From contig RGZB01000001.1 of NCBI GenBank assembly GCA_010031735.1, positions 86,411 through 150,410 on the forward strand: DNA of 64,000 nucleotides. Reading direction: 5' to 3'. This stretch comes from Pseudomonadota bacterium. Its GTDB lineage: Bacteria; Pseudomonadota; Alphaproteobacteria; Rickettsiales; RGZB01. This document shows positions 3,355 through 64,000 of the stretch, piece after piece. Each line of letters starts with the position of its first letter. Positions within the stretch are counted from its first letter, which is position 1. The notes beneath the pieces are model-generated. The model was not told the origin of the DNA and did not search any database. It saw only the letters and a list, made by a program, of their open reading frames with translations. The translations under genes and the position numbers were made by a program.

Positions 3355-3374
3355 ATTACTACCTCAGAAACACC

Positions 3375-3448: not shown

Positions 3449-3703
3449 TCAGCCCATGTTGGCTTGGGTGAGGGTTTCGACGATGAGCCTCATCATGATG
3501 GCGGGAATCGGGGTCTCGCACTGCACAGCCCCCTGCGTCCCGTCGAACTTGCTGACCGGGAACTGCATCTTCTCGCCCTTCTCCATCACCATCGAGCCGA
3601 CCTTGATGTCTTCGAGCGCTTCGATCTCGACTGACCCGGAAACGAGTTGGATCTTGAACGGGAGTGCGACTTCGACATGGATCACGAACGTTTGCGTAGC
3701 CAC
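3449..3703 (-). CDS. hypothetical small protein, GC3-rich cassette C1 (family A, paralog of 11787-12161)
   Basis: 84 aa, GTG start preceded by GAGGG. Nearly all codons end in G/C. N-terminus ..FVIHVEVALPFKIQLVSGSV.. resembles ..IYTIEVELPFDLTVSRSTV.. of C6. Confidence 0.65.
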   Translation of the reverse strand: MATQTFVIHVEVALPFKIQLVSGSVEIEALEDIKVGSMVMEKGEKMQFPVSKFDGTQGAVQCETPIPAIMMRLIVETLTQANMG

Positions 3704-3741
3704 GACAGTACCCTCGGAGTTTGGTCGTGATGCGCGAAGAC

Positions 3742-3764
3742 GAATCCCGCAGGATTGTTCCTTG
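3742..3764 (-). promoter_or_regulatory. conserved leader RNA hairpin (CAAGGAAC-AAUCC-UGCG-GGAUU) in C1 5' leader
   Basis: Same motif in the C6 leader (12210-12234). Two stem positions differ by compensatory changes (A-U/A-U versus G-C/U-A). Confidence 0.45.
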
Positions 3765-3869
3765 TCTTGGCATCACACTTTCGGATGAGTGAATATCCTT
3801 TTCACTCTACGTGCATAGGCATGCATGGTTGGACGCCATGGATACTTTACGCACGAGTTAGTTGTATCC

Positions 3870-3901
3870 ACTATAGCAGAAACAGGTGAATAACTGGTTA
3901 A
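3870..3901 (-). promoter_or_regulatory. putative promoter of C1: TTAACC-N20-TATAGT
   Basis: Gene-sense TTAACCagttattcacctgtttctgcTATAGT, directly abutting the terminator tail of C2. Confidence 0.45.
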
Positions 3902-3914
3902 TACCCCCCTAAAA

Positions 3915-3958
3915 ACACGAAAACCTTCCACCCCAGCTAGGGTGGAAGGTTCGCGTGT
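3915..3958 (-). terminator. intrinsic terminator of cassette C2 (conserved module)
   Basis: Gene-sense ACACGCGAACCTTCCACCC-tagctg-GGGTGGAAGGTTTTCGTGT + TTTTAGGGG. 19-bp stem with 1 mismatch. The stem is nearly identical to 10068-10115. Confidence 0.75.
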
Positions 3959-3988
3959 GTCCCGGTTTACGCTCCGGAACTAATCTCC

Positions 3989-4336
3989 TCAGTCGTCGAA
4001 CGGATCCGCGATGTCGAGGCCCGCACGTGCGGCCTCGTCCTCGAGCAGCATGTCGCCGTAGGCCTCGCCGTAGGGCTTCGGCTCGACCAGCTTGATCTCC
4101 ATGAACGGCACCATCTTCCAGTCCTGAGACGCGTTCTGCCGCATCATGATGTCGTAGGTCCGGTTGTACTCGATCTGGACGGGCTTGCCCTTGGACAGCT
4201 CGAACGGCGTCGCCTCGAGGTCTTCCAGCAGTGAGATGCGTAATGCGACTTGCACTTCGCCCTGCTTGTTTTCTGCCGTGGGGAACTCGCCGACGCTTGC
4301 AACGAACCTAATCCCGAACAGGGTGAACGAAAACAT
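3989..4336 (-). CDS. hypothetical small protein, GC3-rich cassette C2
   Basis: 115 aa, ATG with GGAG upstream, strongly G/C-ending codons, acidic C-terminus ..LDIADPFDD. Confidence 0.7.
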   Translation of the reverse strand: MFSFTLFGIRFVASVGEFPTAENKQGEVQVALRISLLEDLEATPFELSKGKPVQIEYNRTYDIMMRQNASQDWKMVPFMEIKLVEPKPYGEAYGDMLLEDEAARAGLDIADPFDD

Positions 4337-4504
4337 GACCCGAACTCCGAATGTGGGGATTGCAGACGAATCACACCATCCTTGGGGTGATTCGCACTGC
4401 GGGGTGGGGTACTAAGGAACATCCTTGCACCTTACTTGCTTTCCATGTGTGGGGTGATTTTTAAAACCGCACCGCACATTTCCAGACAAGAACCAACTGT
4501 CCCC

Positions 4505-4536
4505 ATGGTATCAAACCCATGTTAACAAAATCTTAA
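4505..4536 (-). promoter_or_regulatory. putative promoter of C2 with perfect TTAA-N7-TTAAC box
   Basis: Gene-sense TTAAgattttgTTAAC (4536->4521). The first half-site TTAAGA lies N20 from TACCAT. Confidence 0.45.
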
Positions 4537-4573
4537 ATTTGTAATTTTTGATGTAGATTTTTAGTTTATACGA

Positions 4574-4608
4574 GAGCCCTCCCCCACCCGACGGGTGGAG
4601 GAAGGCTC
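4574..4608 (-). terminator. intrinsic terminator of cassette C3
   Basis: Gene-sense GAGCCTTCCTCCACCC-gtcg-GGTGGGGGAGGGCTC followed by TCGTATAAAC. Confidence 0.65.
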
Positions 4609-4651
4609 GCGCTTCTGGCTTTACGTTAGGTGCCAGGAACCTCTATCACAC

Positions 4652-4945
4652 TCAGCTCTGGCTGGCGCGCTCCTGCGCGGCGAACTCCGCCGCGTGCTCG
4701 CTGACGCTCTCGACCTCTTCGTCGGCCGGGAGCGGGAAGGCCGGGGCCCACTCTTCCGGGTCCCCGAGCCAGCTGCCACCGGAGTGGCCGTTGTGCTCGT
4801 GGTCCCAGCGGGCCTTCTGGTTGGTGAACTCCGCCTCGAACTTCGGCAGGTCGGCGATCGGGGCCTCGATCTTGTACGGGGCCTTGGCCAACAGCACCCA
4901 CACGTTGACCTTCTCGCCCTTGACCACGATGTGTTGGATCTTCAT
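4652..4945 (-). CDS. hypothetical small protein, GC3-rich cassette C3
   Basis: 97 aa. By hand count 93 of 97 sense codons end in G/C (Lys AAG, Glu GAG). Two other long ORFs over the same DNA are R/G/P-rich shadow frames. Confidence 0.75.
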   Translation of the reverse strand: MKIQHIVVKGEKVNVWVLLAKAPYKIEAPIADLPKFEAEFTNQKARWDHEHNGHSGGSWLGDPEEWAPAFPLPADEEVESVSEHAAEFAAQERASQS

Positions 4946-5168: not shown

Positions 5169-5196
5169 TTTTTTATTAGCGTTGCACACTTTTTAT

Positions 5197-5228: not shown

Positions 5229-5253
5229 AGCGTATTGATAAGTAAGGATTTTC

Positions 5254-6801: not shown

Positions 6802-6803
6802 GT

Positions 6804-6953
6804 ATGAAAACACCCCCTCTCAATGACCAGCTCATGGATACCAAACTGGATATCAAGGATGATGAGTTTGCCCGCATCGCCGAGAAGACCACTGCTGATA
6901 AGGCGAAAATGGAAGCCTTGATGCGGAAGATATCCGAGCAGGATACCAAGTAA
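6804..6953 (+). CDS. hypothetical 49-aa acidic/coiled-coil-like protein, probably co-transcribed with 5254-6801
   Basis: ATG lies 2 nt after the upstream stop, with AAGGA about 10 nt upstream. MKTPPLNDQLMDTKLDIKDDEFARIAEKTTADKAKMEALMRKISEQDTK. Below the ORF-track length cutoff. Confidence 0.4.
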   Translation: MKTPPLNDQLMDTKLDIKDDEFARIAEKTTADKAKMEALMRKISEQDTK

Positions 6954-7054
6954 GGTGCTCGGTTGGCACAAGCCAGCCAATAATCTCCGCTTTTAGGCAA
7001 AAATACTTGATTTTACGCCCTCTGCTGGTTACACCAAGAGTAACCGAGGGGAAC

Positions 7055-8404
7055 ATGCCACCAAAAGCACCGAAGCAGAACTGGACACTTCCAGACCATA
7101 ATTCCAAGAAAAGCCACAAAGTCGCTTATATCAATGCACGCATCATCGATCCAGAATCCGGCTTCGATAAGAAAGGTGCACTGTTGACTGAAGGCGAGAA
7201 AATCGCTGATTTTGGCCCCGCACTCTTTAAGAACGGCGTTCCGAAAGGCATCGAGGTGGTGGACTGCGAAGGCCATGTGCTATGCCCAGGCTTGGTCGAT
7301 ATCCAGGTGCATTTCCGTGAACCCGGCCAAGAACACAAAGAGACCATCAACACCGGCAGTAAATCCGCCGCGGCGGGCGGTATCACCATGGTGGTCTGCC
7401 AACCCAATACCAAGCCCGTGCTCGATAACGTACCCATCGTCGAGTTCATCAAGAACCGTGCACGTGAAACCTCGTATGTGAATATCCGTGCGTATGGCGC
7501 GATCAGTAAGGACATGAAAGGTGAAACCATCACCGAGATGGGCTTGATGCGCGAATCGGGCGTAGTCGTCGGCTTCACGGACGATGGCCTTCCGGTCATG
7601 AACTCCCTGCTTATGCGGCGCGCACTTGAATTCTCCAAGATGCTCGATGTGCCGATCGCACAGCACGCAGAAGATCTGAACCTTTCCAACAAAGGTTGCA
7701 TCAACGAAGGCAAGATTTCGACCAAGCTTGGCGTGCCGGGTATTCCGAACGCATCCGAAGCCGTGTGTGTGGATCGCGATATCCATCTGGTGGCACTCAC
7801 CGGTGGTGTATATCACCTTCTTCATGCCAGTACGCATGAGGCCGTCGAATCCATCCGCCGTGCGAAGAAGATGGGATTGAACGTCACCGCGGAAGCGGCA
7901 CCGCACCACTTCACTTTAACCGATGAAGCCGTGCTCGATTATAAAACCTTCGCAAAAATGAACCCACCACTCCGTGCCGAAAAAGATCGCCTTGCGATCA
8001 TCGAGGGTTTGAAAGACGGTACCATCGATGCGATCGCGACCGATCACGCGCCGCATGACCAGGAATCGAAACGCGTGCCGCTCACCAGTGCCGCATTCGG
8101 TATCGTGGGTGTCGAGACCATGCTGCCGCTCTCGCTTGCGCTTTATCAAAATAAAACACTCTCACTCCGCGATGTACTTGGCAAGATGACCTGGCGCGCA
8201 GCCGATATCATCCGCGAGAAACGCGGCCGCATCAAGAAAGGCGCTATCGCCGATCTGACACTCATCGATCTGGGGATGGAATGGGTGGTAGAGAATGATA
8301 AACTCTCGAGCAAATCGAAGAACTCTCCGTTCGATGGCCGCAAGGTCAAAGGCCGCGCGATCCGCACCATCGTCAGCGGGCAAACGGTGTATACGCTGGG
8401 TTAA
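7055..8404 (+). CDS. pyrC: dihydroorotase (long, allantoinase-like type)
   Basis: DIQVHFREPG metal-binding motif, ..DHAPH... ATG at 7055 has a GAGGGG SD. The ORF-track TTG at 7007 is less likely. Confidence 0.9.
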   Translation: MPPKAPKQNWTLPDHNSKKSHKVAYINARIIDPESGFDKKGALLTEGEKIADFGPALFKNGVPKGIEVVDCEGHVLCPGLVDIQVHFREPGQEHKETINTGSKSAAAGGITMVVCQPNTKPVLDNVPIVEFIKNRARETSYVNIRAYGAISKDMKGETITEMGLMRESGVVVGFTDDGLPVMNSLLMRRALEFSKMLDVPIAQHAEDLNLSNKGCINEGKISTKLGVPGIPNASEAVCVDRDIHLVALTGGVYHLLHASTHEAVESIRRAKKMGLNVTAEAAPHHFTLTDEAVLDYKTFAKMNPPLRAEKDRLAIIEGLKDGTIDAIATDHAPHDQESKRVPLTSAAFGIVGVETMLPLSLALYQNKTLSLRDVLGKMTWRAADIIREKRGRIKKGAIADLTLIDLGMEWVVENDKLSSKSKNSPFDGRKVKGRAIRTIVSGQTVYTLG

Positions 8405-9517
8405 CTACTCCCCAGGCGTATCAGGGTTATAACCCTTGCTGATGTCGATTTTGTTTACTGCCGCGATTAGTTTTACCACCTGCGAAAAAAATCCATCCCT
8501 CAGAGCTTCACTAAAGCATATATCATTCCATGCAGCTTCCCGGCTTAGTTTTTGTTCCGTTAACGCACGGGCGAGCTCTGGGTTATTGGGGATATACTCA
8601 TCTTCAAACCATTCAACAAGCTTACGAGGAGTTTTATCTCCATCAACCTCAAGTACTTCGAGAATTCCTGACCTAGACGATGCTTCAAGAAAATCTTTCA
8701 ACGTTACATACTTTTTCATAGACCATAGCAGATCTTCACAAATTGAATCCGGTAAATACAGGCTGCTGCCTTCTTCCTGAATACCTGACATAATAGGCTT
8801 TTCTGCTAAAATTTCTCGTAAAGCCCCTGCTGCTTGCTCATTCTCAGGAAGATCGTCTACCCTAGAACGGAAGTCCCACACCAAAAACAAAAAATCATAA
8901 ACACCTTCTATTACCATTTCGGCTGCTTCCTGTGGATTTTGCGGCTCTTTCTCGGCAGCTGCCTTCTTCTGATCAACGGATACATTACCTTCTTTGTATG
9001 ACTCTATGCCCCTCTCACTTTCAGCACTAAACATGTCAAGTGCGGCAGCGAGCCATTCCCGCTTAAACGGCTTTCTCTCGGCAAGAGCGAGAACAAACTC
9101 CATATTATCCTTATGCCTTACCGTGAATTCATCACCTCGTAAAAGACTAATATATAATTCGTTAAGGCTGTGGATGATGATCGCCTGTTGAACCGTTATA
9201 GCATGAACGCTTAAATCAGTATCTTCTTTAGGGGCAAACGCAGCAACTGCGGCATAGATGCGGTCATAGGTGCCTTTGTTAAAATTATCTTCAAATACTC
9301 CTCTATCAATCTCTTCATCCGGCTCCACAAAAGGAGGGATTTTGAGGATCATAATCAAACTACCAGAGTGTATACTCAATTGCCCCATTATATCATCTTC
9401 GATCTGTTCATCGGTCATTTCAGTTTCTGATTTGAGTGCCTCCACTAAAGGCAATTCAAGCAACGCCGCAAGTTGCGCTTCCTTATTAGCCTTATCTCTC
9501 CAATTCGTTCCGCTCAT
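8405..9517 (-). CDS. hypothetical acidic protein (370 aa), lower-GC ORFan
   Basis: Long ORF 8 nt downstream of 9526-10008 on the same strand. Its stop codon abuts the pyrC stop with zero spacer. Confidence 0.65.
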   Translation of the reverse strand: MSGTNWRDKANKEAQLAALLELPLVEALKSETEMTDEQIEDDIMGQLSIHSGSLIMILKIPPFVEPDEEIDRGVFEDNFNKGTYDRIYAAVAAFAPKEDTDLSVHAITVQQAIIIHSLNELYISLLRGDEFTVRHKDNMEFVLALAERKPFKREWLAAALDMFSAESERGIESYKEGNVSVDQKKAAAEKEPQNPQEAAEMVIEGVYDFLFLVWDFRSRVDDLPENEQAAGALREILAEKPIMSGIQEEGSSLYLPDSICEDLLWSMKKYVTLKDFLEASSRSGILEVLEVDGDKTPRKLVEWFEDEYIPNNPELARALTEQKLSREAAWNDICFSEALRDGFFSQVVKLIAAVNKIDISKGYNPDTPGE

Positions 9518-9525
9518 AACGCCTC

Positions 9526-10008
9526 CTATTCCTTACTCTGCGCCACCATCTTCAGGATATATTTTCTAAAATCCGGATCTTCACCGACGAGTAATTTCGG
9601 CAGCGCTTTTCTGAAATCCTCACGCTTCACCCAGAAAATAATGTAGTCTTCCCAGGTGCTCCACAGACGCTTTTGGTGTGGCGGCATCTTCTCTTCATAG
9701 ACAAGGATGTATGCTTGTTCGAATAAGGAAATCAGCAGATCGAAGATGATGAGTTTCCTCTCAATTTGTTCATTCGTCAGCTTTCGCTTCGAACTGTTTT
9801 TTGAAAACAGGCGAAGATCGGAATTCTCAAGAAGGATTTCCTGGAAATCGGAATATTGGTCAGCGAGGCGTTGATACACCTCCTCCTCTTCGTTCTGACG
9901 TTCCTTACGGTAATCGGAAATGAAAATAATGATGGCGAAGGGTAAACCGATCACGGTTACCACATAGCTGAGCAACTCCCACGTCTCTATATCAGTAAAA
10001 TCCATCAT
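9526..10008 (-). CDS. hypothetical membrane-anchored protein (160 aa)
   Basis: N-terminal TM helix LLSYVVTVIGLPFAIIIFI. AT-rich codon usage. The -10-like TAGTAT lies 6 nt from the ATG (leaderless geometry). Confidence 0.65.
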   Translation of the reverse strand: MMDFTDIETWELLSYVVTVIGLPFAIIIFISDYRKERQNEEEEVYQRLADQYSDFQEILLENSDLRLFSKNSSKRKLTNEQIERKLIIFDLLISLFEQAYILVYEEKMPPHQKRLWSTWEDYIIFWVKREDFRKALPKLLVGEDPDFRKYILKMVAQSKE

Positions 10009-10014
10009 GCTCAG

Positions 10015-10046
10015 ATACTAAGTGAAAATGGTGAAGAAAAGGTTAA
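10015..10046 (-). promoter_or_regulatory. putative promoter of 160-aa/370-aa operon: TTAACC-N20-TAGTAT
   Basis: Gene-sense TTAACCttttcttcaccattttcactTAGTATctgagcATG. Aligns with the C1 promoter (shared TTAACC..TTCACC..TTTC). Confidence 0.5.
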
Positions 10047-10067
10047 TGCCCTGCTTTATACCCTAAA

Positions 10068-10115
10068 ACACGAAAACCTTCCACCGCCCCGAAGGGTAGT
10101 GGAAGGTTCGCGTGT
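10068..10115 (-). terminator. intrinsic terminator of cassette C4 (conserved module)
   Basis: Gene-sense ACACGCGAACCTTCCAC-tacccttcggggcg-GTGGAAGGTTTTCGTGT + TTTAGGGTAT. Same stem as 3915-3958 but a different loop. Confidence 0.75.
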
Positions 10116-10144
10116 GCCCTGACTTACGATGCCAGGGCTAGGTA

Positions 10145-10711
10145 CTACGGCTTCGGCAACTCGAAGCCGAACTCGTCGTCCTCATCGGTCGGAGGGGCGG
10201 CGGGCGGCGGCGGCGGCGGCAATTCAAACACCACCTCCTGCTCGCCTGGCCAGTCTTTCAACTCGAACCAGCCCTCGTCGTCCTCCTGCGGCGGCACCGC
10301 CTTTGCCACCTCACCCAACCCGGAAAGCTTACCGAACTCGGTGAGGGCTTTGGAGATGTCCTCGCCCACGGCCGCCAACGCAATGGCAGTTGGCGGCAGC
10401 TCCCAGCAATCGTTGTCATCCACGACGACTGGCCCGGTGACCGGCGGACCGATCACCAAGTGCTCACCCGTGGGCAGCCCGCTCCCGGGGAACACCGAGT
10501 TCAGGATATTCCGGGCGCGGCGCGTAGCGCGCAGGTGACGCACCACCTCCGTCGCCTCGAACTCCTCGCGGGTGAAGGGCGTCAACTTCACGCCGACCGC
10601 CGTGAGGATGGCCTTCGCGGTGGCCCCGTTCATGTCACCGTAGTTTTTCGTGGCGCCGTTCTTGGACGGCTTGGTGAACACGAGCCCGGCGGTCAGGATG
10701 CGCTTCTGCAT
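10145..10711 (-). CDS. hypothetical protein, GC3-rich cassette C4 (family B, paralog of 11059-11487)
   Basis: 188 aa from the ATG at 10711 (GAGGT upstream). The ORF-track start at 10870 runs into the AT-richer leader. KP..K..TKNYG..G motif is shared with C5. Pro/Asp/Glu-rich C-terminus. Confidence 0.65.
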   Translation of the reverse strand: MQKRILTAGLVFTKPSKNGATKNYGDMNGATAKAILTAVGVKLTPFTREEFEATEVVRHLRATRRARNILNSVFPGSGLPTGEHLVIGPPVTGPVVVDDNDCWELPPTAIALAAVGEDISKALTEFGKLSGLGEVAKAVPPQEDDEGWFELKDWPGEQEVVFELPPPPPPAAPPTDEDDEFGFELPKP

Positions 10712-10939
10712 GGGACTAGTACCTCGCCATTTCTCCCATCCCCTGTTTTTAATTGTTAGGGGGACGCGGATAGTGGCACATGTAGGGATTGGTGGAGGAA
10801 ATTTGTGAAACCCTTTCCACTTAGGGTTATGCAAAACTGTAGGCTCGAACCGTAGCAAAACCAAAAACAATGCCCACAGTCAAACACCGAACCAAACTTA
10901 CATAACACCAACTTAACATCCCCAGTATGACTGAACGAT

Positions 10940-10972
10940 ATTACAAAAATATTACCCCTGACCCATGGTTAA
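10940..10972 (-). promoter_or_regulatory. putative promoter of C4: TTAACCAT..-N21-TGTAAT
   Basis: Gene-sense TTAACCATgggtcaggggtaatattttTGTAAT. Exact TTAACCAT 8-mer immediately after the C5 terminator tail. Confidence 0.4.
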
Positions 10973-10988
10973 TAGCGCCTATAAACAC

Positions 10989-11022
10989 GAAACCCCGCCC
11001 CCACTAAAGGGGACAGGGTCTC
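10989..11022 (-). terminator. intrinsic terminator of cassette C5
   Basis: Gene-sense GAGACCCTGTCCCC-tttagt-GGGGGCGGGGTTTC + GTGTTTATAGG (G-U pairs valid only in the minus-sense RNA). Confidence 0.7.
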
Positions 11023-11058
11023 ATGCGCCTGACTCACGCCAGGTCTTTAGGTATCAGG

Positions 11059-11487
11059 TCACTGCGGCGTCTCTACCGGGTAGCCCCCGAAGTTGTCGGT
11101 TTTCGTGACCCCGCCCTTCTCCTTAGGCGGCGCTTCGCCCAGCTCCTTCAGCAGATCGAACGGCTCGTCTTCCGGGGTCAGCTTCACCGCCTCACCCAGC
11201 CCATCGATCTCCGGAACAGCAGGCAGGAACTCCAGCACCGTCGTCCCGCCCTCGTTGCTACCCTGCGGCGCATCGTAGGGCGGCTCCATCGGCCACTCGA
11301 ACACCTCGTCGTTCCAGTCGTGCATGTCGAGCGGCGGGCGCTTGTACGGCCACAGCCCGGCCTTCTTCAGCGCCTGCTGCGCCTTGAACCCGCTCACCGG
11401 CCCGTAGTTCTTCGTCCAGCTCTTGCGCCCCGGCTTGTAGTAGCTGTCCGGGTGCTTCACCGACGTCAACAAAAGAGACGCGCGCAT
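11059..11487 (-). CDS. hypothetical protein, GC3-rich cassette C5 (family B)
   Basis: 142 aa from the ATG at 11487 (MRASLLLTSVKHPDSYYKPGRKSWTKNYGPVSG..). Start chosen by alignment with C4. G/C-ending codons. Confidence 0.65.
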   Translation of the reverse strand: MRASLLLTSVKHPDSYYKPGRKSWTKNYGPVSGFKAQQALKKAGLWPYKRPPLDMHDWNDEVFEWPMEPPYDAPQGSNEGGTTVLEFLPAVPEIDGLGEAVKLTPEDEPFDLLKELGEAPPKEKGGVTKTDNFGGYPVETPQ

Positions 11488-11668
11488 AACCCAATACCTC
11501 ACCACAACTTCCACCATCCTAATTTTTAGGCGGGAGCAGTGGCACACAAGCTGGTGAAGTAATTATTATGACCCCTCTTCACCAAATGGGTCCTTCGACA
11601 ACCGCGATTACGTTAGTACGTAGCCACGGGTTATATTCCATCAAAAGACAGCCAACGAAAGAGCCACC

Positions 11669-11700
11669 AGTATATCGCTGGAATATTGCAGTTTGGTTAC
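11669..11700 (-). promoter_or_regulatory. putative promoter of C5: GTAACC-N20-TATACT
   Basis: Gene-sense GTAACCaaactgcaatattccagcgaTATACT. Confidence 0.4.
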
Positions 11701-11728
11701 GTCTTAAAAAGCTAATAAACAGCTATAA

Positions 11729-11770
11729 AACACAAGACCCCCGCCGCAGATGCGACGAGGGTCTTGTGTT
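11729..11770 (-). terminator. intrinsic terminator of cassette C6
   Basis: Gene-sense AACACAAGACCCTCG-tcgcatctgc-GGCGGGGGTCTTGTGTT + TTATAGC. Confidence 0.7.
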
Positions 11771-11786
11771 GTTAATTGTGCTTACT

Positions 11787-12161
11787 CTACTCGCCAGAGC
11801 CCCCTTGCGCCGGGGGGTCGCCCTTGTAGGCGTCGTCGTGAACGTCCGTCGGCCACGGCGGCATACCGTTCATCCCGCCGCACAGATTCGTCAACACTTT
11901 CGGCATCACGCTCTTCGCCGCCGCCTTCACGATCTTGGCCGCGATGATCGTGCTGCCCGCGCCGTCCCCGACCACTTCGATCGAGATCTTCCCGTCCAGC
12001 ACCTGCGCGAGGCTCACTTCCGCCGACTGACCCTTTTTGAGCGGGTGGCACTTGCCGCCGCCCAGCACGTTCAGAGGCACGTGCGCACAGATGGTGACGG
12101 TGCTGCGCGACACCGTGAGATCGAACGGCAGTTCGACCTCAATCGTGTAAATGGTTCCCAT
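11787..12161 (-). CDS. hypothetical small protein, GC3-rich cassette C6 (family A)
   Basis: 124 aa. Strong SD AGGAGGG 6 nt before the ATG. G/C-ending codons. N-terminus similar to C1. Confidence 0.75.
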   Translation of the reverse strand: MGTIYTIEVELPFDLTVSRSTVTICAHVPLNVLGGGKCHPLKKGQSAEVSLAQVLDGKISIEVVGDGAGSTIIAAKIVKAAAKSVMPKVLTNLCGGMNGMPPWPTDVHDDAYKGDPPAQGGSGE

Positions 12162-12209
12162 ATTCGCTCCCTCCTAAAGAAGCGTAGTGGGTTCCTGATG
12201 ACGACAGCC

Positions 12210-12234
12210 GGTTCCCGCAGGAACGTTCCTTGGC
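12210..12234 (-). promoter_or_regulatory. conserved leader RNA hairpin (CAAGGAAC-GUUCC-UGCG-GGAAC) in C6 5' leader
   Basis: Counterpart of 3742-3764, with compensatory stem changes. Confidence 0.45.
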
Positions 12235-12454
12235 TTTGTCATCGTAATTCGTGGGGTAAGGAATCCATTACCTTACCTGCTGCCTAACACCGATGAGTTA
12301 CATCGGGGTCCAAAACAGCAAGACAAACCATAGGCAGGATAAAGGTAAATTATGACGGAGATATGACGCACCACTGTGAAAAGCCGAAAGTATGGCATAA
12401 AATAGCCATACTTGGCAGTCCATCTTATTGCCATTACCGCTATATTTCAGTTAC

Positions 12455-12487
12455 TAAGTATTACACCATCGTTAACGGGTCGTTAAC
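12455..12487 (-). promoter_or_regulatory. putative promoter of C6 with perfect TTAA-N7-TTAAC box
   Basis: GTTAACgggtcGTTAAC reads as TTAA-N7-TTAAC on both strands (12472-12487). The gene-sense upstream TTAACG lies N20 from TACTTA. Confidence 0.45.
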
Positions 12488-12497
12488 TCATCTGTAA

Positions 12498-12517
12498 CAT
12501 GTTCCACGTGGAACATG
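12498..12517. repeat. perfect 20-bp palindrome CATGTTCCACGTGGAACATG
   Basis: Read directly. Lies between the C7 terminator and the C6 TTAAC box. Confidence 0.9.
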
Positions 12518-12521
12518 GCAG

Positions 12522-12537
12522 GATACGCTAGCGTATC
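12522..12537. repeat. perfect 16-bp palindrome GATACGCTAGCGTATC
   Basis: Read directly. 4 nt from the 20-bp palindrome, with imperfect GGCA/TGCC extension. Confidence 0.9.
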
Positions 12538-12569
12538 TGCCGTAATAGACATTCTATTCGCCCCAAAAA

Positions 12570-12609
12570 GCAAAAGGGAGAGAGGTTTGCAGTCCCTCTC
12601 TCCCTTTGC
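12570..12609 (-). terminator. intrinsic terminator of cassette C7
   Basis: Gene-sense GCAAAGGGAGAGAGG-gactgcaaa-CCTCTCTCCCTTTTGC + TTTTTGGGG. Confidence 0.7.
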
Positions 12610-12654
12610 CGCCCCGTATAATAGATAATAAAATGGGGCTTCATTCTTCCATGA

Positions 12655-12954
12655 TCAGCCGACGGTGTCCCCGTCGTTCGGCCACTGGTAGTCGGCGTTC
12701 CCGCTCACCCAGTCGATCACCGCCGACGCGCCCACGCCCATGTCCTCGTTCTCGAACTCCTTGTCCTCGGCCATCGCCCGCGCGGCCTCGTGCCCGATGG
12801 CCGCGTACTTGGCCTGCAGGGCGAGGTCGGCACCGTCCACGGCCTTGTCGTCCGGGTCGTCCTTGATCTTGGTCACGGTCTTGGTGGCCGGCTGGACCTC
12901 GAAGAAATCGTCCGCGCCGCCGTCGTCGTCGTTCCGCCGATTCCGAGCGCTCAT
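12655..12954 (-). CDS. hypothetical acidic small protein, GC3-rich cassette C7
   Basis: 99 aa from the ATG at 12954 (GGAG 9 nt upstream). The ORF-track TTG at 12990 is also possible. G/C-ending codons. Confidence 0.6.
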   Translation of the reverse strand: MSARNRRNDDDGGADDFFEVQPATKTVTKIKDDPDDKAVDGADLALQAKYAAIGHEAARAMAEDKEFENEDMGVGASAVIDWVSGNADYQWPNDGDTVG

Positions 12955-13138
12955 GGCTGCTTTCTCCGCTTTCGGTAATCCCTTACGCAACTTGGGATGT
13001 CAACCGAAGCACGTGTGTGGTGAGGGTCTAGAACTCGATCTTCGAACTCTGCTATCTACCCTTCTCACCTTAGGGTCATGTATCAGTCCTCGGTTGCGAC
13101 ACGAGAGACTGGTTATATGCACCAAGAAATACCCCTTT

Positions 13139-13170
13139 AATATGCCCGAATACTGTTACAAATATGTTAA
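13139..13170 (-). promoter_or_regulatory. putative promoter of C7: TTAACA-N20-CATATT
   Basis: Gene-sense TTAAcatatttGTAACagtattcgggCATATT (TTAA-N7-gTAAC, one mismatch to the full box). Confidence 0.4.
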
Positions 13171-13272
13171 AATCAGTCGATTAGGGGCTAAAATACTGAA
13201 AGTTGCGTTAATCACTGGAAATCCACCAAAAATTTGCTATGGTACGCACGACTCACGATACAGGTTTATGCC

Positions 13273-14607
13273 ATGAAAAAGATGATTCTGCCCATTTTAG
13301 CGGTTTTTAGCCTCTCCGCCTCCACTTCCGCCTACGCCATCACCATGGAAGAAGCCATGGTTAAAGCCTATACGCAGAACCCCTCGCTGGAAGCGGATCG
13401 TGCTGCGAAAGAGGCTACCGACGAATTACTCCCACAGGCTTATTCTGGTTTCCTTCCGACCGTCACCGCAAGTTATAGCCGCGGTAAGGTAGACCAGACC
13501 ATCGGTCGCCGTGAAAGCGATAATATCCAGAAGACACGCTCACTCAGTATCCGTCAGCCTATCTTCAATGGTGGCGAAACCATCTTCCAAAGCCAACGTG
13601 CAGAAAACCTCATCTCCGCGGCAAAGAACGACCTCATCGATTCCGAACAAACGACGCTTGGTGGTGCAGTACAAGTATATATGGATGTCGTACGTACCGA
13701 TAAGGTTCTCGACCTCAGCAAGAATAATGAACAAGTGTTAAGCGAGCAGCTGCAAGCGACGCAAGAACGTTTTAAGCTCGGTGAAACGACACGTACCGAC
13801 GTGGCGCAAGCAGAAGCACGTCTGGAGCGTGCCAAATCAGACCGCATCCGTGCAGAAGGCGATGTGATCGCTGCGCACGCGAGCTATAAGCGTGTCGTAG
13901 GTGAAGAGCCGGTAGGCCTTTTCATGCCGACAAGCTTGCCGCAAGTACCGACGAGACTGGACGATGTCGTGAAACGGGCGATGGAAAACAACCCACGCTT
14001 GAAACGCGCCGCGTTCACCAAAGATGCCGCTGAAAACGATGTGTGGATTACGAAGGCCCGCCTGCTCCCCGATGCGGAGGTGGAAGGCCGCATGGATCGT
14101 GAAGATGGCTTAAACAGCTTGTTTGGTAGCAACCAGGACACCGATTCCCTGCTCTTGCACGTAACGGTTCCACTCTATCAATCCGGTGAAGAATATTCCC
14201 GCATCCGCCAGGCGAAACGCACGAAAGAGCGCCGCAACATGGAAGAAGCGGATACAAATAACATCACGCTTGAGGGTGCTACGAAAGCGTGGAAGGATCT
14301 GGAAACCGCGCGTTCTACGATCGCGTCCAGTGCGGCTGCCGTGAAAGCAGCAAAAATCGCGCTTGATGGTGTTCGCCAGGAAGCCGATGTGGGTTCCCGC
14401 ACGATTCTGGATATCCTCGATGCCGAACAAGAACTCTTCACTGCCAACGTCAACCTGGTGACAGCACAACGTAACGAAGTGATCGCAATCTACAACGTAA
14501 AATCGATCATGGGTGAGCTGACTGCTGATAATCTGAACCTGCCAGGCCCGCACTATGACATGGATTCTTACCGTGACAAAGTGAAGTACCGGATGATCGG
14601 TTTTTAA
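13273..14607 (+). CDS. tolC: TolC-family outer membrane efflux/type I secretion protein
   Basis: Signal peptide MKKMILPILAVFSLSASTSAYA. Two TolC-type repeats. Start taken at the ATG with the signal peptide. Confidence 0.85.
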   Translation: MKKMILPILAVFSLSASTSAYAITMEEAMVKAYTQNPSLEADRAAKEATDELLPQAYSGFLPTVTASYSRGKVDQTIGRRESDNIQKTRSLSIRQPIFNGGETIFQSQRAENLISAAKNDLIDSEQTTLGGAVQVYMDVVRTDKVLDLSKNNEQVLSEQLQATQERFKLGETTRTDVAQAEARLERAKSDRIRAEGDVIAAHASYKRVVGEEPVGLFMPTSLPQVPTRLDDVVKRAMENNPRLKRAAFTKDAAENDVWITKARLLPDAEVEGRMDREDGLNSLFGSNQDTDSLLLHVTVPLYQSGEEYSRIRQAKRTKERRNMEEADTNNITLEGATKAWKDLETARSTIASSAAAVKAAKIALDGVRQEADVGSRTILDILDAEQELFTANVNLVTAQRNEVIAIYNVKSIMGELTADNLNLPGPHYDMDSYRDKVKYRMIGF

Positions 14608-22394: not shown

Positions 22395-22520
22395 TTACTT
22401 CTTCTTGTGGCCCGCGAACTGGTTGGCCGGGATCTTGTGCTGCCGCCGCGCGCGCTTGAGGGCCTTGCTGTTGCCCTTGGCCTTGGCGGACTCCGTCTTG
22501 CCGTGCTGGATCTTGCGCAT
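22395..22520 (-). CDS. hypothetical 41-aa highly basic peptide, GC3-rich cassette C8
   Basis: MRKIQHGKTESAKAKGNSKALKRARRQHKIPANQFAGHKKK. Every Lys is AAG and most codons end in G/C. Below the ORF-track cutoff. The opposite-strand ORF 22407-22601 looks like a shadow frame. Confidence 0.45.
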   Translation of the reverse strand: MRKIQHGKTESAKAKGNSKALKRARRQHKIPANQFAGHKKK

Positions 22521-57989: not shown

Positions 57990-58292
57990 ATGGTTACGAT
58001 CCACATGTTCACAGCAGAGCTCGCAGCTCTCGAACACGGGCAAACGGTTACGAAGGGCAGCGTCACGATCAGCCTCGAAAACGTGCCGAACACCACGACG
58101 ATCAAGCTCAACGAGCAGCAGTTCGCAGATTTGACGCTGAGCACAAACGTCGAGGTGGCAGGGTACAAGCTGATCGCGCCGGACAAGAAGAAGGCTCCGC
58201 ACGACCCGATCATCGGTAAGATGCTCCCAGCGCAGGGCGAACCCATGGATAACCCGCCGATCGATGGCGCGGGTAACCCGGGCTGGCTGTGA
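57990..58292 (+). CDS. hypothetical small protein, GC3-rich cassette C10
   Basis: 100 aa, GGAG upstream, G/C-ending codons. The two antisense ORFs over the same DNA look like shadow frames. Confidence 0.65.
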   Translation: MVTIHMFTAELAALEHGQTVTKGSVTISLENVPNTTTIKLNEQQFADLTLSTNVEVAGYKLIAPDKKKAPHDPIIGKMLPAQGEPMDNPPIDGAGNPGWL

Positions 58293-62725: not shown

Positions 62726-62769
62726 TTAACATATATTTAACATTATTTTATTGTTATTTATGGCATAGT
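62726..62769 (+). promoter_or_regulatory. putative promoter of C11 with perfect TTAA-N7-TTAAC box
   Basis: TTAAcatatatTTAAC (62726-62741), then TTAACA-N21-CATAGT. The 26-nt block CGTTTAACATATATTTAACATTATTT recurs at 63453-63478 (25/26 identical). Confidence 0.5.
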
Positions 62770-62978
62770 GTCTTTGCATTTTACCACACGTGGTTTCAGA
62801 ACAGGGTCCGTTCTCTTTTTATTCTTCCCCCAACCAAAACAACACACGGGAAGATACGCTGCAGCAAAGCCATACCAGGACAACGATCTCCATGAGAGAT
62901 TTACCGGTATACGTAGGCTAGCTGAAGTAGAGAGAATCGATCCTGTTGCTGAAACCACTTCGGAAAGCGAGGTGGAAA

Positions 62979-63374
62979 ATGCAGACCATGATCCTGTTGG
63001 GCGGCAAGTTGACGATCCAGGCCTGCGAGTTGGAGAACGCCTTCGGCCTCATCGTCAACGGTGAGACGCGGAGCGTCAGCAAGTACCCGCACCCGCACGT
63101 GCCGACGCCGAAGGAGATCGACGCGGCGGTGCAGACGGCGATCGACTTCCTGATCAGCCAGGGCTACGACATCACGATGCCGCTGCCGGTCGAGGAGATC
63201 ACGCCGCTCGACGAGGTGCTGGACGCCATCCCGGTGGACAGCGACGTGATGCTGGTCCCCGACGACGACGTGATCGACCTGGGCAAGGAGCTGCTCGAGG
63301 GCGGCACGACCGAGGAGAAGCCGGACGACAACGAGATGTTCGGGGGCTACAAGCACCCCTGGGACAACGAGTAA
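62979..63374 (+). CDS. hypothetical acidic protein, GC3-rich cassette C11
   Basis: 131 aa from the ATG at 62979 (GAGGTGG SD). The ORF-track TTG at 62946 lies in the lower-GC leader. G/C-ending codons. Confidence 0.7.
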   Translation: MQTMILLGGKLTIQACELENAFGLIVNGETRSVSKYPHPHVPTPKEIDAAVQTAIDFLISQGYDITMPLPVEEITPLDEVLDAIPVDSDVMLVPDDDVIDLGKELLEGGTTEEKPDDNEMFGGYKHPWDNE

Positions 63375-63395
63375 CAACTGACTGAGTGACCTACA

Positions 63396-63427
63396 GAGGG
63401 CTTCGTGGATTAAACCACGAGGCCCTC
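63396..63427 (+). terminator. intrinsic terminator of cassette C11
   Basis: GAGGGCtTCGTGG-attaaa-CCACGAgGCCCTC + GCCTTTTCTAGGGTAT. The pre-stem ACCTACAG is shared with 63933-63940. Confidence 0.7.
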
Positions 63428-63455
63428 GCCTTTTCTAGGGTATCTCCACCTACGT

Positions 63456-63498
63456 TTCACATATATTTAACATTATTTCCCTGTGATTTATATATAAT
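63456..63498 (+). promoter_or_regulatory. putative promoter of C12: TTcA-N7-TTAAC, TTAACA-N20-TATAAT
   Basis: TTAACAttatttccctgtgatttataTATAAT. One mismatch to the full box. Confidence 0.5.
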
Positions 63499-63631
63499 GA
63501 AGGCTCGTCCATACCGTTAGGTTACAGAGCCCAGAACATCCGGTTCTTCCAGAGAATCCCAAAAGCCAGTCAGAAACTGTGCTCCGGGTGCTATGGATCT
63601 GTGCCTACCAACACGAAGGGTTGGTGTCGAG

Positions 63632-63886
63632 ATGGTGATGGTGTACGGCTGGAGCTGGTGGATGTACCTGCTGGTGTTCCCGTTCTTCTACAAGCAGTAC
63701 TGGGTGAAGATGGCGGGCGGGAAGTGGTGTACGGTGGAGAAGTTCGTTCGCGCCTACCCGCACGAGCAGCCCTGCATCTGCAAGAAGATCGGCAACCTGT
63801 GGGTGATCACCGACGTGTTCTACCTGAACAAGCAGCACCAGGTGGTGAAGTTCCACCACGAGCCGCCGCTGATGATCGACGACTGA
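63632..63886 (+). CDS. hypothetical Trp/aromatic-rich small membrane protein, GC3-rich cassette C12
   Basis: 84 aa from the ATG at 63632 (MVMVYGWSWWMYLLVFPFFYKQYW..). The 13 codons upstream of it (ORF-track start 63593) are not GC3-rich, so the exact start is uncertain. Confidence 0.55.
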   Translation: MVMVYGWSWWMYLLVFPFFYKQYWVKMAGGKWCTVEKFVRAYPHEQPCICKKIGNLWVITDVFYLNKQHQVVKFHHEPPLMIDD

Positions 63887-63939
63887 CAGATTCCCTACTC
63901 TGAACACGACAGAGTCTAAAAAAATGTGGAGAACCTACA

Positions 63940-63968
63940 GGGGGCGTCGTGCGAAAGCACGGGCCCCC
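63940..63968 (+). terminator. intrinsic terminator of cassette C12
   Basis: GGGGGCgtCGTGC-gaaa-GCACGgGCCCCC + GACATTTTTTAGGGTGTG. Confidence 0.7.
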
Positions 63969-64000
63969 GACATTTTTTAGGGTGTGCAATGCACCATCAT

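What the first reader, a model, noticed from the sequence alone, without database searches (positions are those of the whole stretch)
8405..13272. Six-unit minus-strand array between pyrC and tolC mixing high-GC cassettes with low-GC ORFans under the same promoter type
Reading the minus strand from 13230 to 8405, the units are C7, C6, C5, C4 (all GC3-rich), then a 160-aa membrane protein and a 370-aa acidic protein (both AT-rich). Every unit except the last gene has its own TTAAC-type promoter, and units C7-C4 each end in a strong hairpin. The array is compositionally mosaic (very high and rather low GC side by side) but regulatory-module homogeneous. That pattern would be expected if foreign ORFs were repeatedly captured into a common promoter/terminator chassis. 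The 370-aa gene's stop codon abuts the pyrC stop with no spacer (8402-8407).
Basis: partly seen in the sequence, partly recalled or inferred. Interest (0 to 1): 0.7.

Follow-up and report, generated by a model that had tools for sequence, protein, structure and literature searches.

The report
Orphan mini-gene cassettes with CtrA-type promoters
An uncultured Rickettsiales-like bacterium has strings of tiny orphan genes inserted between conserved housekeeping genes; each has the same kind of cell-cycle-regulator promoter and terminator, yet their codon usage is unlike the rest of the genome, and their function is unknown.

Summary
Between pyrC and tolC lie six minus-strand units. Four are small ORFs (99-188 aa) with GC3 of 0.86-0.95, against 0.625±0.059 for 40 housekeeping genes. 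Each ends in a 16-20 bp hairpin. They are followed by a 160-aa membrane-anchored gene and a 370-aa acidic orphan gene whose stop abuts the pyrC stop.

The array is not unique. The window holds 11 such cassettes, and a 12th lies just beyond its end. Five relatives keep glnE-bcp-pyrB-pyrC-tolC contiguous, so the arrays are lineage-specific insertions.

The "TTAAC promoter" matches the CtrA box. TTAA-N7-TTAAC occurs at 6 sites against 0.28 expected, and TTAACCAT 6 times against 1.4. The box also precedes mlaA, where it is conserved in two relatives.

Cassette codon usage is not expression-driven: rplM, rpsI, infB and nusA prefer the opposite codons. It also does not look like import from a high-GC donor, because GC1 and GC2 are host-like and Lys far exceeds Arg.

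The four proteins searched against large databases, three cassettes and the 370-aa gene, are orphans. Some cassettes are paralogues of each other. No recombinase or attC-like site is present.

Best reading: a lineage-specific, duplicating and fast-diverging mini-gene family wired into a CtrA-like regulon. An integron-like capture platform is not supported. Function is unknown.

The parts
13155..13170 (-). C7 promoter box TTAACATATTTGTAAC (one mismatch to TTAA-N7-TTAAC). A CATATT -10-like hexamer lies 21 nt after the first TTAAC. The box is homologous to the C8 and C9 boxes.
12655..12954 (-). C7 ORF, 99 aa, GC3 0.95, pI 4.1; GGAG Shine-Dalgarno-like element 9 nt upstream.
12569..12610 (-). C7 terminator hairpin (16 pairs) followed by a U-run.
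12471..12486 (-). C6 perfect CtrA-type full site TTAACGACCCGTTAAC; a TGAAAT -10-like hexamer follows 21 nt later.
11787..12161 (-). C6 ORF, 124 aa, GC3 0.86, with a strong AGGAGGGAG Shine-Dalgarno element. Its 5'UTR shares a 20-nt block with the C1 5'UTR.
11729..11770 (-). C6 terminator hairpin, 19 pairs, z = -10.
11680..11718 (-). C5 degenerate promoter-like region: TTAGC, 22 nt, then TGcAATAT (extended -10-like). There is no exact TTAAC here.
11059..11487 (-). C5 ORF, 142 aa, GC3 0.89. Paralogue of C4 (N-terminal TKNYG block and C-terminal module) and of C8 (C-terminal GLGE..FGGY module).
10985..11043 (-). C5 3'UTR: a small hairpin plus an 18-pair terminator ending in GUUUCGUGUUUAUAGG.
10965..10972 (-). 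C4 promoter box TTAACCAT, the ungapped 8-mer CtrA motif.
10145..10711 (-). C4 ORF, 188 aa, GC3 0.87, acidic. It contains an internal repeat (..EDDEGWFEL.. / ..DEDDEFGFEL..) and a polyproline run.
10068..10138 (-). C4 3'UTR: an 8-pair hairpin plus a 20-pair terminator. The terminator arms are identical to those of C2 at 3915-3958.
10012..10048 (-). Promoter-like site of the 160-aa gene: TTAACC, 20 nt, TAGTAT, then only 6 nt to the ATG (near-leaderless).
9526..10008 (-). 160-aa membrane-anchored protein with host-like GC3 (0.57). It is not an orphan: homologues of 42-46% identity lie on Sinorhizobium, Paracoccus and Deinococcus plasmids.
8405..9517 (-). 370-aa acidic orphan protein (pI 4.5, GC3 0.39). 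It starts 8 nt after the stop of the 160-aa gene (probable two-gene operon), and its stop abuts the pyrC stop.
3449..4945 (-). Second array, C1 (3449-3703), C2 (3989-4336) and C3 (4652-4945), inserted between pyrB and pyrC. The modules are the same: a perfect full site at 4521-4536 and TTAACCAT at 5161-5168.
57990..58292 (+). Solitary cassette C10 (100 aa, GC3 0.79) with a GTAA-N7-TTCAC box and a two-hairpin 3'UTR ending in GTGTTTTTAGGGCATTAA.
62726..63990 (+). Third array, C8 (62979-63374, GC3 0.98) and C9 (63632-63886, GC3 0.96). C8 has a perfect full site at 62726-62741, and the two promoters are 96% identical over 26 nt. The array continues beyond the window with C11, seen on L013.
22395..22520 (-). 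Mini-cassette C12: a 41-aa basic peptide, GC3 0.98, with a GAGGG Shine-Dalgarno element and a strong 3' hairpin. No TTAAC box was found.

Best explanation
The pyrC-tolC array is the largest cluster of a lineage-specific family of autonomous mini-gene cassettes in an uncultured Rickettsiales-like alphaproteobacterium.

Anatomy (shown from sequence). Each cassette consists of:
- a response-regulator box of the CtrA type (TTAA-N7-TTAAC, one-mismatch variants, or TTAACCAT), placed about 21 nt upstream of a -10-like hexamer;
- a 130-280 nt, often structured, leader;
- a Shine-Dalgarno element;
- a 41-188 aa ORF written almost entirely in G/C-ending codons;
- a family-specific, very strong hairpin terminator.

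Mechanism (inferred).
- Phosphorylated CtrA, or a regulator with the same specificity, binds the box where the -35 element would be and recruits RNA polymerase. All cassettes, and several low-GC orphan genes beside them, would then switch on together at the CtrA-active stage. In Ehrlichia that is the late stage of intracellular growth.
- The strong terminators make each unit monocistronic. They also shield the housekeeping genes, into whose operon junctions the arrays are inserted, mostly in antisense orientation.
- The family grew by duplication of whole cassettes, and possibly recombination between their conserved flanks, followed by very fast protein divergence.
- The products are mostly small, acidic, Arg-poor, Pro/Trp-rich proteins with acidic-aromatic short motifs. 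My guess, with low confidence, is that they are secreted or host-interaction factors.
- The GC3 excess is confined to synonymous sites. It therefore most likely reflects selection acting on the mRNA or its decoding (stability, structure, dependence on particular tRNAs) rather than donor ancestry or high expression.

The 160-aa and 370-aa genes are a separately acquired two-gene unit sitting in the same permissive gap and using the same promoter type.
For: Cassette anatomy and number. The start codons I chose give exactly the deposited PGAP protein sequences.

Coding status: strong three-base periodicity (GC1/GC2/GC3 about 0.61/0.40/0.9), and a Shine-Dalgarno-like element before all 11 cassettes checked.

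The motif is real and belongs to the host:
- TTAA-N7-TTAAC occurs at 6 sites against 0.28 expected. All are intergenic and point toward a gene. Besides cassettes, they precede mlaA, ccmC and an orphan gene.
- The mlaA site is conserved in relatives L002 and L003.
- TTAACCAT occurs 6 times against 1.4 expected.
- TTAAC lies upstream of 10 of 11 cassettes against 4 of 25 housekeeping genes (p = 4e-5).
- The spacing to a -10-like hexamer is consistent at 20-22 nt.
- These are the published CtrA motifs, activating sites lie near -35, and CtrA acts late in Ehrlichia growth (PMC6180460; PMC9005958).

Terminators. The tail motif is nearly cassette-specific.

Lineage-specific insertion: five relatives (PyrC 70-77% identical) keep glnE-bcp-pyrB-pyrC-tolC contiguous and lack P515, L370 and L160 at these loci.

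Not an assembly artefact: an independent 4.5-kb assembly spans folK-popZ-tolC-C7-C6-C5 at 99.98% identity.

Paralogy:
- C5-C8 z = 5.2 and C4-C5 z = 4.8 against shuffles.
- C8 and C11 share a 5'UTR, including a long stem kept by compensatory changes as read by eye.
- C1 and C6 share a 20-nt block in the 5'UTR.

Codon usage is neither host-optimal nor donor-like:
- Cassettes use AAG 0.92, GAG 0.81, GAC 0.85, GGG 0.31 and CGG 0.32.
- rplM, rpsI, infB and nusA use AAG 0.25-0.32 and no GGG or CGG at all.
- Cassette K:R is 78:25 against 525:433 in housekeeping genes (p = 4e-5).
Against: - No transcript, binding or protein data exist. Promoters, transcription start sites and CtrA dependence are predictions.
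- ctrA itself is not in the window.
- The sites fail a canonical sigma-70 scan, and the 20-22 nt spacing is longer than the usual 17.
- C5 and C12 lack an exact box.
- Most cassette pairs show no detectable protein similarity, so common descent of all cassettes is assumed, not shown.
- C2 and C4 have identical terminator arms with different loops and unrelated ORFs. Simple duplication and divergence does not explain that.
- The selective cause of the GC3 excess is unidentified.
- The effector idea rests only on composition and on motifs chosen after the fact.
- Both AlphaFold models were unusable, with mean pLDDT below 40.
Confidence: 0.55

Rival explanations
1. Gene-capture platform. A site-specific or flank-homology recombination system repeatedly places foreign ORFs between a standard promoter and a standard terminator, in the manner of an integron.
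For: - The composition anomaly stops at the ORF borders, and the UTRs look like host intergenic DNA.
- C2 and C4 have identical terminator arms around unrelated ORFs.
- A CCUA...UAGG closing stem brackets several terminators.
- All four proteins searched against the large databases (C4, C6, C8 and the 370-aa gene) are orphans.
- Cassettes sit in at least four separate loci.
Against: - No tyrosine or serine recombinase, transposase or reverse transcriptase was found among the ORFs scanned across the 64 kb.
- No attC-like RYYYAAC/GTTRRRY cores were seen when the junctions were read by eye.
- Every cassette has its own promoter-like site, unlike integron cassettes.
- Some cassettes are paralogues, UTRs included.
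- GC1, GC2 and the K/R ratio are host-like.
- No donor was found anywhere.
Confidence: 0.1
2. Ordinary horizontal transfer. The cassettes are moron-like transcription units or prophage/plasmid remnants imported from a high-GC donor, and are slowly drifting toward host composition.
For: - Each is an independent promoter-gene-terminator unit whose GC differs from its neighbours, which is the definition of a moron (PMC3594210, listed).
- GC3 ranges from 0.98 down to 0.79, as different ages of drift toward host composition would give.
- Codon choices such as GGG, CGG, AAG and GAG are typical of high-GC genomes.
- The neighbouring 160-aa gene does have plasmid-borne homologues.
Against: - The window contains no phage or plasmid genes.
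- There are no PHROG, phage, IMG/VR or plasmid matches to any cassette tested.
- The UTRs are 0.39-0.49 GC.
- GC1 and GC2 are host-like and Lys exceeds Arg threefold. That is contrary to the known coupling of GC3 with GC1, GC2 and Arg/Lys usage in high-GC genomes (established knowledge; data).
- The promoters carry a motif of the recipient's own regulon, conserved upstream of mlaA in relatives.
Confidence: 0.2
3. Codon bias from very high expression. The cassettes are native genes whose G/C-ending codons are the translationally optimal ones.
For: Strong Shine-Dalgarno elements, strong terminators and an extreme, uniform codon bias.
Against: - Ribosomal protein genes rplM and rpsI have GC3 of 0.62, AAG fraction 0.25, and no GGG or CGG.
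- infB and nusA behave likewise.
- The cassettes therefore prefer the codons that the host's translation genes avoid.
Confidence: 0.03
4. Artefact. The GC-rich segments are chimeric assembly joins or non-coding GC-rich DNA that happens to stay open.
For: - The source is a metagenome-assembled genome.
- GC-rich DNA yields long spurious ORFs on both strands.
Against: - An independent assembly spans tolC-C7-C6-C5 at 99.98% identity, and other independent contigs carry C8 and C9.
- Only one frame per unit shows the coding pattern GC3 >> GC1 > GC2. That same frame has the start codon, the Shine-Dalgarno element, the promoter upstream and the terminator downstream in the same orientation.
Confidence: 0.02

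Closest known systems
CtrA regulon genes of Alphaproteobacteria (Caulobacter class II flagellar, ccrM and pilA promoters; Ehrlichia chaffeensis late-stage genes)
   Same: - The same DNA motifs: TTAA-N7-TTAAC and TTAACCAT.
- The motif sits where the -35 element would be.
- The motif also precedes housekeeping envelope genes here, and upstream of mlaA it is conserved in relatives (PMC6180460, PMC9005958).
   Different: - Known regulon members are conserved functional genes (flagellum, division, methylation, stress).
- Here the motif is attached to a swarm of orphan mini-genes with aberrant codon usage.
- Binding by CtrA is not demonstrated.
Phage morons
   Same: Autonomous promoter-gene-terminator units that are inserted between unrelated genes and differ from their neighbours in GC content (PMC3594210).
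   Different: - They are not in a prophage. The flanks are pyrB, pyrC, tolC, uvrA and similar genes.
- They carry a host-regulon promoter.
- They form tandem arrays of paralogues.
- The composition anomaly is restricted to synonymous sites.
Integron gene cassette arrays
   Same: Co-oriented tandem arrays of small, mostly orphan ORFs, each followed by an imperfect palindrome.
   Different: - No intI, attI or attC core sites.
- Each unit has its own promoter.
- The hairpins use G-U pairs and have U-tails, so they are RNA terminators.
- The arrays lie at several loci.
Lineage-specific acidic effector families of Rickettsiales (for example the Ehrlichia tandem-repeat proteins secreted by the type I system). 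This comparison comes from my own knowledge.
   Same: Small to medium, very acidic, repeat- or motif-containing orphan proteins in a Rickettsiales-like genome. The array lies next to tolC.
   Different: - No sequence similarity.
- No secretion evidence.
- The GC3 anomaly and the cassette architecture are not features of those families.
Composition bias of gene transfer agent genes in Alphaproteobacteria (Kogay and colleagues, PMC9765227, and reference 9 cited in it)
   Same: A CtrA-linked, conditionally expressed gene set whose GC content and codon and amino-acid usage deviate from the rest of the genome through selection rather than ancestry.
   Different: - GTA genes are conserved phage-derived structural genes in a single cluster.
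- There is no homology to the cassettes, and the cassettes are independent mini-genes.

Membership tests
CtrA regulon | TTAA-N7-TTAAC or TTAACCAT in the promoter region, near -35 for activated genes | tested here: met
   - Perfect full sites precede C2, C6 and C8.
- The 8-mer precedes C3, C4 and P515.
- One- or two-mismatch full sites precede C1, C7, C9, C10 and C11.
- All lie 20-22 nt upstream of a -10-like hexamer.
- C5 and C12 lack an exact site.
CtrA regulon | The genome encodes CtrA and its phosphorelay | not testable with these tools
   ctrA is not in the 64-kb window and the rest of the genome could not be fetched. CtrA is general in Rickettsiales (PMC9005958).
CtrA regulon | CtrA binds the site and expression depends on CtrA | not testable with these tools
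   Needs gel-shift or ChIP assays and transcript data.
Intrinsic (Rho-independent) terminator | A GC-rich RNA hairpin directly followed by a U-tract, on the coding strand after the stop codon | tested here: met
   - Folding the 3' regions of all 10 cassettes tested gave z-scores of -3.7 to -10 against shuffles.
- C4-C7 have stems of 16-20 pairs with U-rich tails.
- G-U pairs show that the pairing works at the RNA level.
- C3 has a weak U-tract.
Integron | intI tyrosine recombinase adjacent to the array | tested here: not met
   Pfam scans of the ORFs that could be genes across the window found no integrase or recombinase.
Integron | attC sites with RYYYAAC/GTTRRRY cores at cassette ends; promoterless cassettes read from a common Pc promoter | tested here: not met
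   - The conserved junction is ACACG..CGTGTTTTTAGG..TATTAAC, and no such cores were seen when the alignment was read by eye.
- Each unit has its own promoter-like box and its own terminator.
Phage moron | Located inside a phage or prophage genome | tested here: not met
   - The flanks are housekeeping genes.
- There are no PHROG hits and no phage or IMG/VR matches.
Phage moron | Independent transcription unit with composition unlike its neighbours | tested here: met
   This is met as far as sequence can show. Transcription was not measured.
Horizontally acquired gene from a high-GC donor | GC1, GC2 and amino-acid usage (Arg > Lys) shifted together with GC3; homologues in high-GC taxa | tested here: not met
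   - GC1/GC2 are 0.61/0.40, against 0.59/0.40 in the host.
- K:R is 78:25.
- No homologues were found for C4, C6 or C8.
Secreted effector (type I or type IV secretion) | Secretion signal and demonstrated translocation | not testable with these tools
   Only indirect hints exist: acidic pI of 4.1-5.9 in 9 of the 10 cassette proteins measured (C9 is 8.8), acidic-aromatic motifs at 5 per 1216 aa against 1 per 13613 aa in housekeeping proteins, and adjacency to tolC.

The most novel reading that the evidence does not exclude
The cassettes are a previously undescribed kind of chromosomal expression module. It would be a recombination-competent chassis made of a CtrA-box promoter, a structured leader and a family-specific terminator. 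Its ORFs would be deliberately recoded to G/C-ending codons by selection on the mRNA, for one of two reasons. One is to make very stable, nuclease-resistant messages that are stored for, or burst-expressed in, the transmissive stage. The other is to make translation depend on a stage-specific tRNA or tRNA-modification state: NAC codons are used 85-100% of the time against 32-67% in the host. The conserved flanks would allow ORFs to be shuffled and spread between intergenic sites without a dedicated recombinase.
Probability: 0.15. Interest if true: 0.8.

Novelty: new variant of a known kind. Interest (0 to 1): 0.55.

Why it matters
- If the reading is right, one regulator box would tie a dozen or more fast-evolving orphan mini-genes per 64 kb to the cell-cycle or developmental switch of an uncultured Rickettsiales relative. 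That would give a ready-made candidate list of stage-specific, possibly host-directed, factors in a lineage with no cultured member.
- The GC enrichment is extreme, limited to ORFs and limited to synonymous sites, and it runs opposite to the host's translational preferences. Neither of the two usual explanations, expression level and foreign ancestry, accounts for it.
- The family therefore offers a clean natural test case for selection on mRNA-level properties.
- The arrays also split the ancestral adjacency of pyrB and pyrC. That shows how such insertions rewire housekeeping transcription units.

Tried and rejected
**Family and database searches**
- Pfam, NCBIfam, PHROGs and PADLOC gave nothing significant for the cassettes tested, the 370-aa gene or P515.
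- Large protein searches for C4, C8 and the 370-aa gene returned only the query itself.
- An exhaustive HMMER search with C6 returned only two repeat-protein hits, which I regard as spurious.
- A tblastn search with all units concatenated found nothing in phage records. In plasmid records it found only homologues of the 160-aa gene.
- A terminator-tail pattern gave 5 IMG/VR hits, about what I estimate chance would give. One is simply a tRNA terminator.
- PDB sequence searches with P515 and the 370-aa protein found nothing.
- Rfam and tRNA scans of the window found nothing.

**Structure prediction**
- AlphaFold on single sequences of the 370-aa protein and C6 gave mean pLDDT of 40 and 38. No fold search was attempted.

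**Promoter scan**
- The canonical sigma-70 scan found no minus-strand promoter in the array.

**Attempts to reach more sequence**
- Look-ups intended to reach the rest of the 161-kb contig returned only short ENA contigs.
- These contigs are 99.8-100% identical to the window, so no dN/dS estimate was possible.

**Ideas rejected**
- Integron
- Prophage moron
- Expression-driven codon bias
- Assembly chimera
- Non-coding GC islands
The reasons are given under the rival explanations.

Full report
**What is at the coordinates**

On the minus strand between pyrC (7055-8404, +) and tolC (13273-14607, +) lie six ORFs:
- C7, 12655-12954 (99 aa)
- C6, 11787-12161 (124 aa)
- C5, 11059-11487 (142 aa)
- C4, 10145-10711 (188 aa)
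- a 160-aa ORF, 9526-10008
- a 370-aa ORF, 8405-9517

The four cassette proteins, with exactly the start codons I chose, are deposited NCBI hypothetical proteins EB060_00470 to EB060_00485 from a metagenome-assembled genome labelled "Proteobacteria bacterium". The 370-aa protein is EB060_00460. The pyrC stop (TAA, 8402-8404) is followed directly by the reverse-strand stop of the 370-aa gene (8405-8407).

**Composition**

- Forty Pfam-supported housekeeping genes in the window have GC3 of 0.625 ± 0.059, with a maximum of 0.73.
- C4-C7 have GC3 of 0.86-0.95.
- The 370-aa gene has 0.39, and the 160-aa gene a host-like 0.57.
- The spacers between cassettes are 0.45-0.49 GC, like other intergenic DNA.

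The mosaic does not vanish on proper calculation, and it is confined to the ORFs.

**The array is one of several**

The window contains 11 small ORFs with this signature:
- C1-C3, between pyrB and pyrC
- C4-C7, the array in question
- C10, between an addB-like gene and uvrA
- C8-C9, after a YkuD-type transpeptidase gene
- C12, a 41-aa basic peptide beside rimP

A further cassette, C11, lies just beyond the window end. It was seen on an independent contig.

**Terminators**

- Folding the 3' regions of all ten cassettes tested gives energies of -32 to -50 kcal/mol and z-scores of -3.7 to -10 against shuffles.
- C4-C7 end in stems of 16-20 pairs followed by U-rich tails.
- C2, C4, C5, C6 and C10 share an outer stem and tail, ACACG...CGUGUUUUUAGG, followed by ...TATTAAC.
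- Their inner stems differ, but pairing is kept by compensatory changes and G-U pairs. These are therefore RNA structures.
- The tail TTYGTGTTTW occurs five times in the window, four of them at cassettes, against 0.78 expected.
- C2 and C4 have identical arms (18 + 21 nt), although their ORFs show no detectable similarity.

**Promoters**

- No canonical sigma-70 promoter is predicted on the minus strand of the array.
- TTAA-N7-TTAAC occurs at six sites in the window, against 0.28 expected. All are intergenic and point toward the downstream gene: C2, C6, C8, mlaA, ccmC and a 424-aa orphan gene.
- TTAACCAT occurs six times, against 1.4 expected. The sites include C3, C4 and P515.
- Variants with one or two mismatches precede C1, C7, C9, C10 and C11.
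- The 3' TTAAC lies 20-22 nt upstream of a -10-like hexamer, sometimes with a TGn extension.
- TTAAC is found upstream of 10 of 11 cassettes but only 4 of 25 housekeeping genes (p = 4e-5), and also upstream of 4 of 6 low-GC orphan genes.
- The mlaA site is conserved in two relatives.

These are the published CtrA recognition motifs. Activating sites lie near -35, and in Ehrlichia CtrA acts late in intracellular growth (PMC6180460; PMC9005958). C5 has only a degenerate version (TTAGC), and C12 has none. That CtrA is the regulator is inference.

**Leaders**

- The 5'UTRs are 130-280 nt long, and each ends in a Shine-Dalgarno-like element.
- The C8 leader folds into a long hairpin (z = -9.1).
- The same stem can be drawn in its paralogue C11 with different sequence. 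I judged this by eye.

**Organism and synteny**

- The nearest genomes are uncultured "Rickettsiales" assemblies with PyrC 70-77% identical. Ehrlichia is 60% identical.
- All five relatives have glnE-bcp-pyrB-pyrC-tolC contiguous, with short gaps and no P515, L370, L160 or GC3-rich ORFs.
- The arrays are therefore insertions specific to this lineage. One of them splits pyrB from pyrC.
- The rest of the window is housekeeping: rimP-nusA-infB-truB-pnp, rplM-rpsI, glnA, pyrF, uvrA and an rpoH-like sigma factor.
- No integrase, transposase or reverse transcriptase was found among the ORFs scanned.
- An independent 4.5-kb assembly spans folK-popZ-tolC-C7-C6-C5 at 99.98% identity, which rules out a chimeric join.

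**What the ORFs are**

- They are coding. One frame per unit shows GC3 >> GC1 > GC2. That frame also has the start codon, the Shine-Dalgarno element, the promoter and the terminator in matching orientation.
- C4, C8 and the 370-aa protein have no homologue among 5.8 billion proteins.
- C6 has none among 1.8 billion representatives, apart from two repeat-protein hits that I regard as spurious.
- All ten cassette proteins looked up sit in 90%-identity clusters holding only this organism's sequence. Nine are singletons, and C7 has one variant differing at a single base.
- There are no Pfam, NCBIfam, PHROG, PADLOC, phage or plasmid matches.
- AlphaFold single-sequence models were unusable.
- Within the genome, C4-C5 and C5-C8 are significant paralogues (z = 4.8 and 5.2). 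They share a GLGE[AV]xK...F[DE]L...FGGY C-terminal module.
- C8-C11 and C1-C6 are supported mainly by shared 5'UTR segments.
- Other pairs are not detectably related.
- Nine of the ten cassette proteins measured have pI 4.1-5.9; C9 is basic at 8.8. Pooled, the cassettes are Arg-poor and rich in Pro and Trp.
- They are enriched in acidic-aromatic motifs such as WFEL and FELP, and C4 has a polyproline run. These motif patterns were chosen after looking at the sequences.

**The two low-GC genes**

- The 160-aa protein has full-length homologues of 42-46% identity on plasmids of Sinorhizobium, Paracoccus (there cut by an IS66 element) and Deinococcus. None has a 370-aa-like partner.
- It is a mobile-DNA-associated protein of unknown function, unrelated to the cassettes.
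- Its promoter-like TTAACC-N20-TAGTAT sits directly after the C4 terminator and only 6 nt before the ATG.
- The 370-aa gene follows after 8 nt, so the two probably form an operon.

**Why the codon usage is odd**

- Cassettes use AAG 0.92, GAG 0.81, GAC 0.85, TAC 1.00, GGG 0.31 and CGG 0.32.
- Housekeeping genes prefer AAA, GAA and GAT.
- rplM, rpsI, infB and nusA use AAG at 0.25-0.32 and never use GGG or CGG. High expression is therefore excluded.
- Cassette GC1/GC2 (about 0.61/0.40) equal the host values, and Lys exceeds Arg 78:25 (p = 4e-5 against host). Genomes with GC3 near 0.9 have raised GC1 and GC2 and more Arg than Lys (established knowledge). Long residence in a high-GC donor is therefore unlikely.
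- The excess is specific to synonymous sites. I infer selection at the mRNA or decoding level, but I cannot say which kind.

**Verdict**

- The shared "chassis" is real.
- The capture mechanism is not supported.
- The best-supported picture is a duplicating, fast-diverging, lineage-specific mini-gene family. It carries insulated terminators and is wired into a CtrA-like regulon.
- The family is inserted at operon junctions, beside a separately acquired two-gene unit.
- Function remains unknown. A role for the products as secreted or host-interaction factors is a low-confidence guess.

Noticed in passing
window 3355-7054: In five relatives pyrB and pyrC are adjacent, 0-80 nt apart. Here they are separated by 3.7 kb holding C1-C3 (antisense) and a 515-aa orphan P-loop protein (5254-6801, motif GGYGSGKST). 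That protein has its own TTAACCAT box at 5197-5204 and may now drive pyrC.
   Followed up: partly
window 29717-31899: Polynucleotide phosphorylase is split into two overlapping ORFs (29717-30964 and 30931-31899). This is either a frameshift, meaning a pseudogene or programmed shift, or an assembly error.
   Followed up: no
window 12498-12537 (minus strand): Two perfect palindromes sit just upstream of the C6 CtrA-type box: GATACGCTAGCGTATC (12522-12537) and CATGTTCCACGTGGAACATG (12498-12517). They could be operator sites for other regulators.
   Followed up: no
window 22395-22520 (-) and 22672-22707: A 41-aa lysine-rich basic peptide gene has GC3 of 0.98, a Shine-Dalgarno element and a strong 3' hairpin, and lies between the AIM24-like gene and rimP. 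Its upstream region contains an exact 18-nt tandem duplication (CATAACTGTATTTGTTGG, twice).
   Followed up: partly
window 20443-20458, 44419-44434, 48579-48594; L002 16699-16714; L003 16700-16715: Perfect TTAA-N7-TTAAC sites precede mlaA, a 424-aa orphan gene and ccmC. The mlaA site is conserved in two relatives, which suggests an ancestral envelope branch of the regulon.
   Followed up: partly
window 42801-48502: A block of larger genes without Pfam domains and with below-average GC3 (0.45-0.56; 532, 424, 344 and 305 aa), plus a DnaJ-domain protein, lies next to an rpoH-like sigma factor gene (41820-42701). Two of them have TTAAC upstream. This is a second compositional class of apparently lineage-specific genes.
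   Followed up: no
window 62776-62982; L013 about 590-780: The C8 5'UTR forms a hairpin of about 160 nt (z = -9.1 against shuffles) that begins with the palindrome ACCACACGTGGT at the predicted 5' end. The paralogue C11 appears to keep the stem with different sequence (judged by eye). It may be a processing or stability element.
   Followed up: partly
L029 4001-4447, L030 4001-4480, L031 3001-6420: The 160-aa membrane-anchored protein belongs to an uncharacterised family found on plasmids of Deinococcus, Sinorhizobium (beside a possible replication gene, by my reading of the translation) and Paracoccus (there interrupted by IS66). It has a weak Pfam DUF6249 hit (E = 0.002).
   Followed up: partly
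loci L002, L003, L005, L017, L018: Among relatives with the same gene order, GC3 of the shared genes ranges from about 0.25-0.33 (L017, L018) to about 0.6 (L002, L003 and the window). GC content has therefore shifted strongly within this clade.
   Followed up: no
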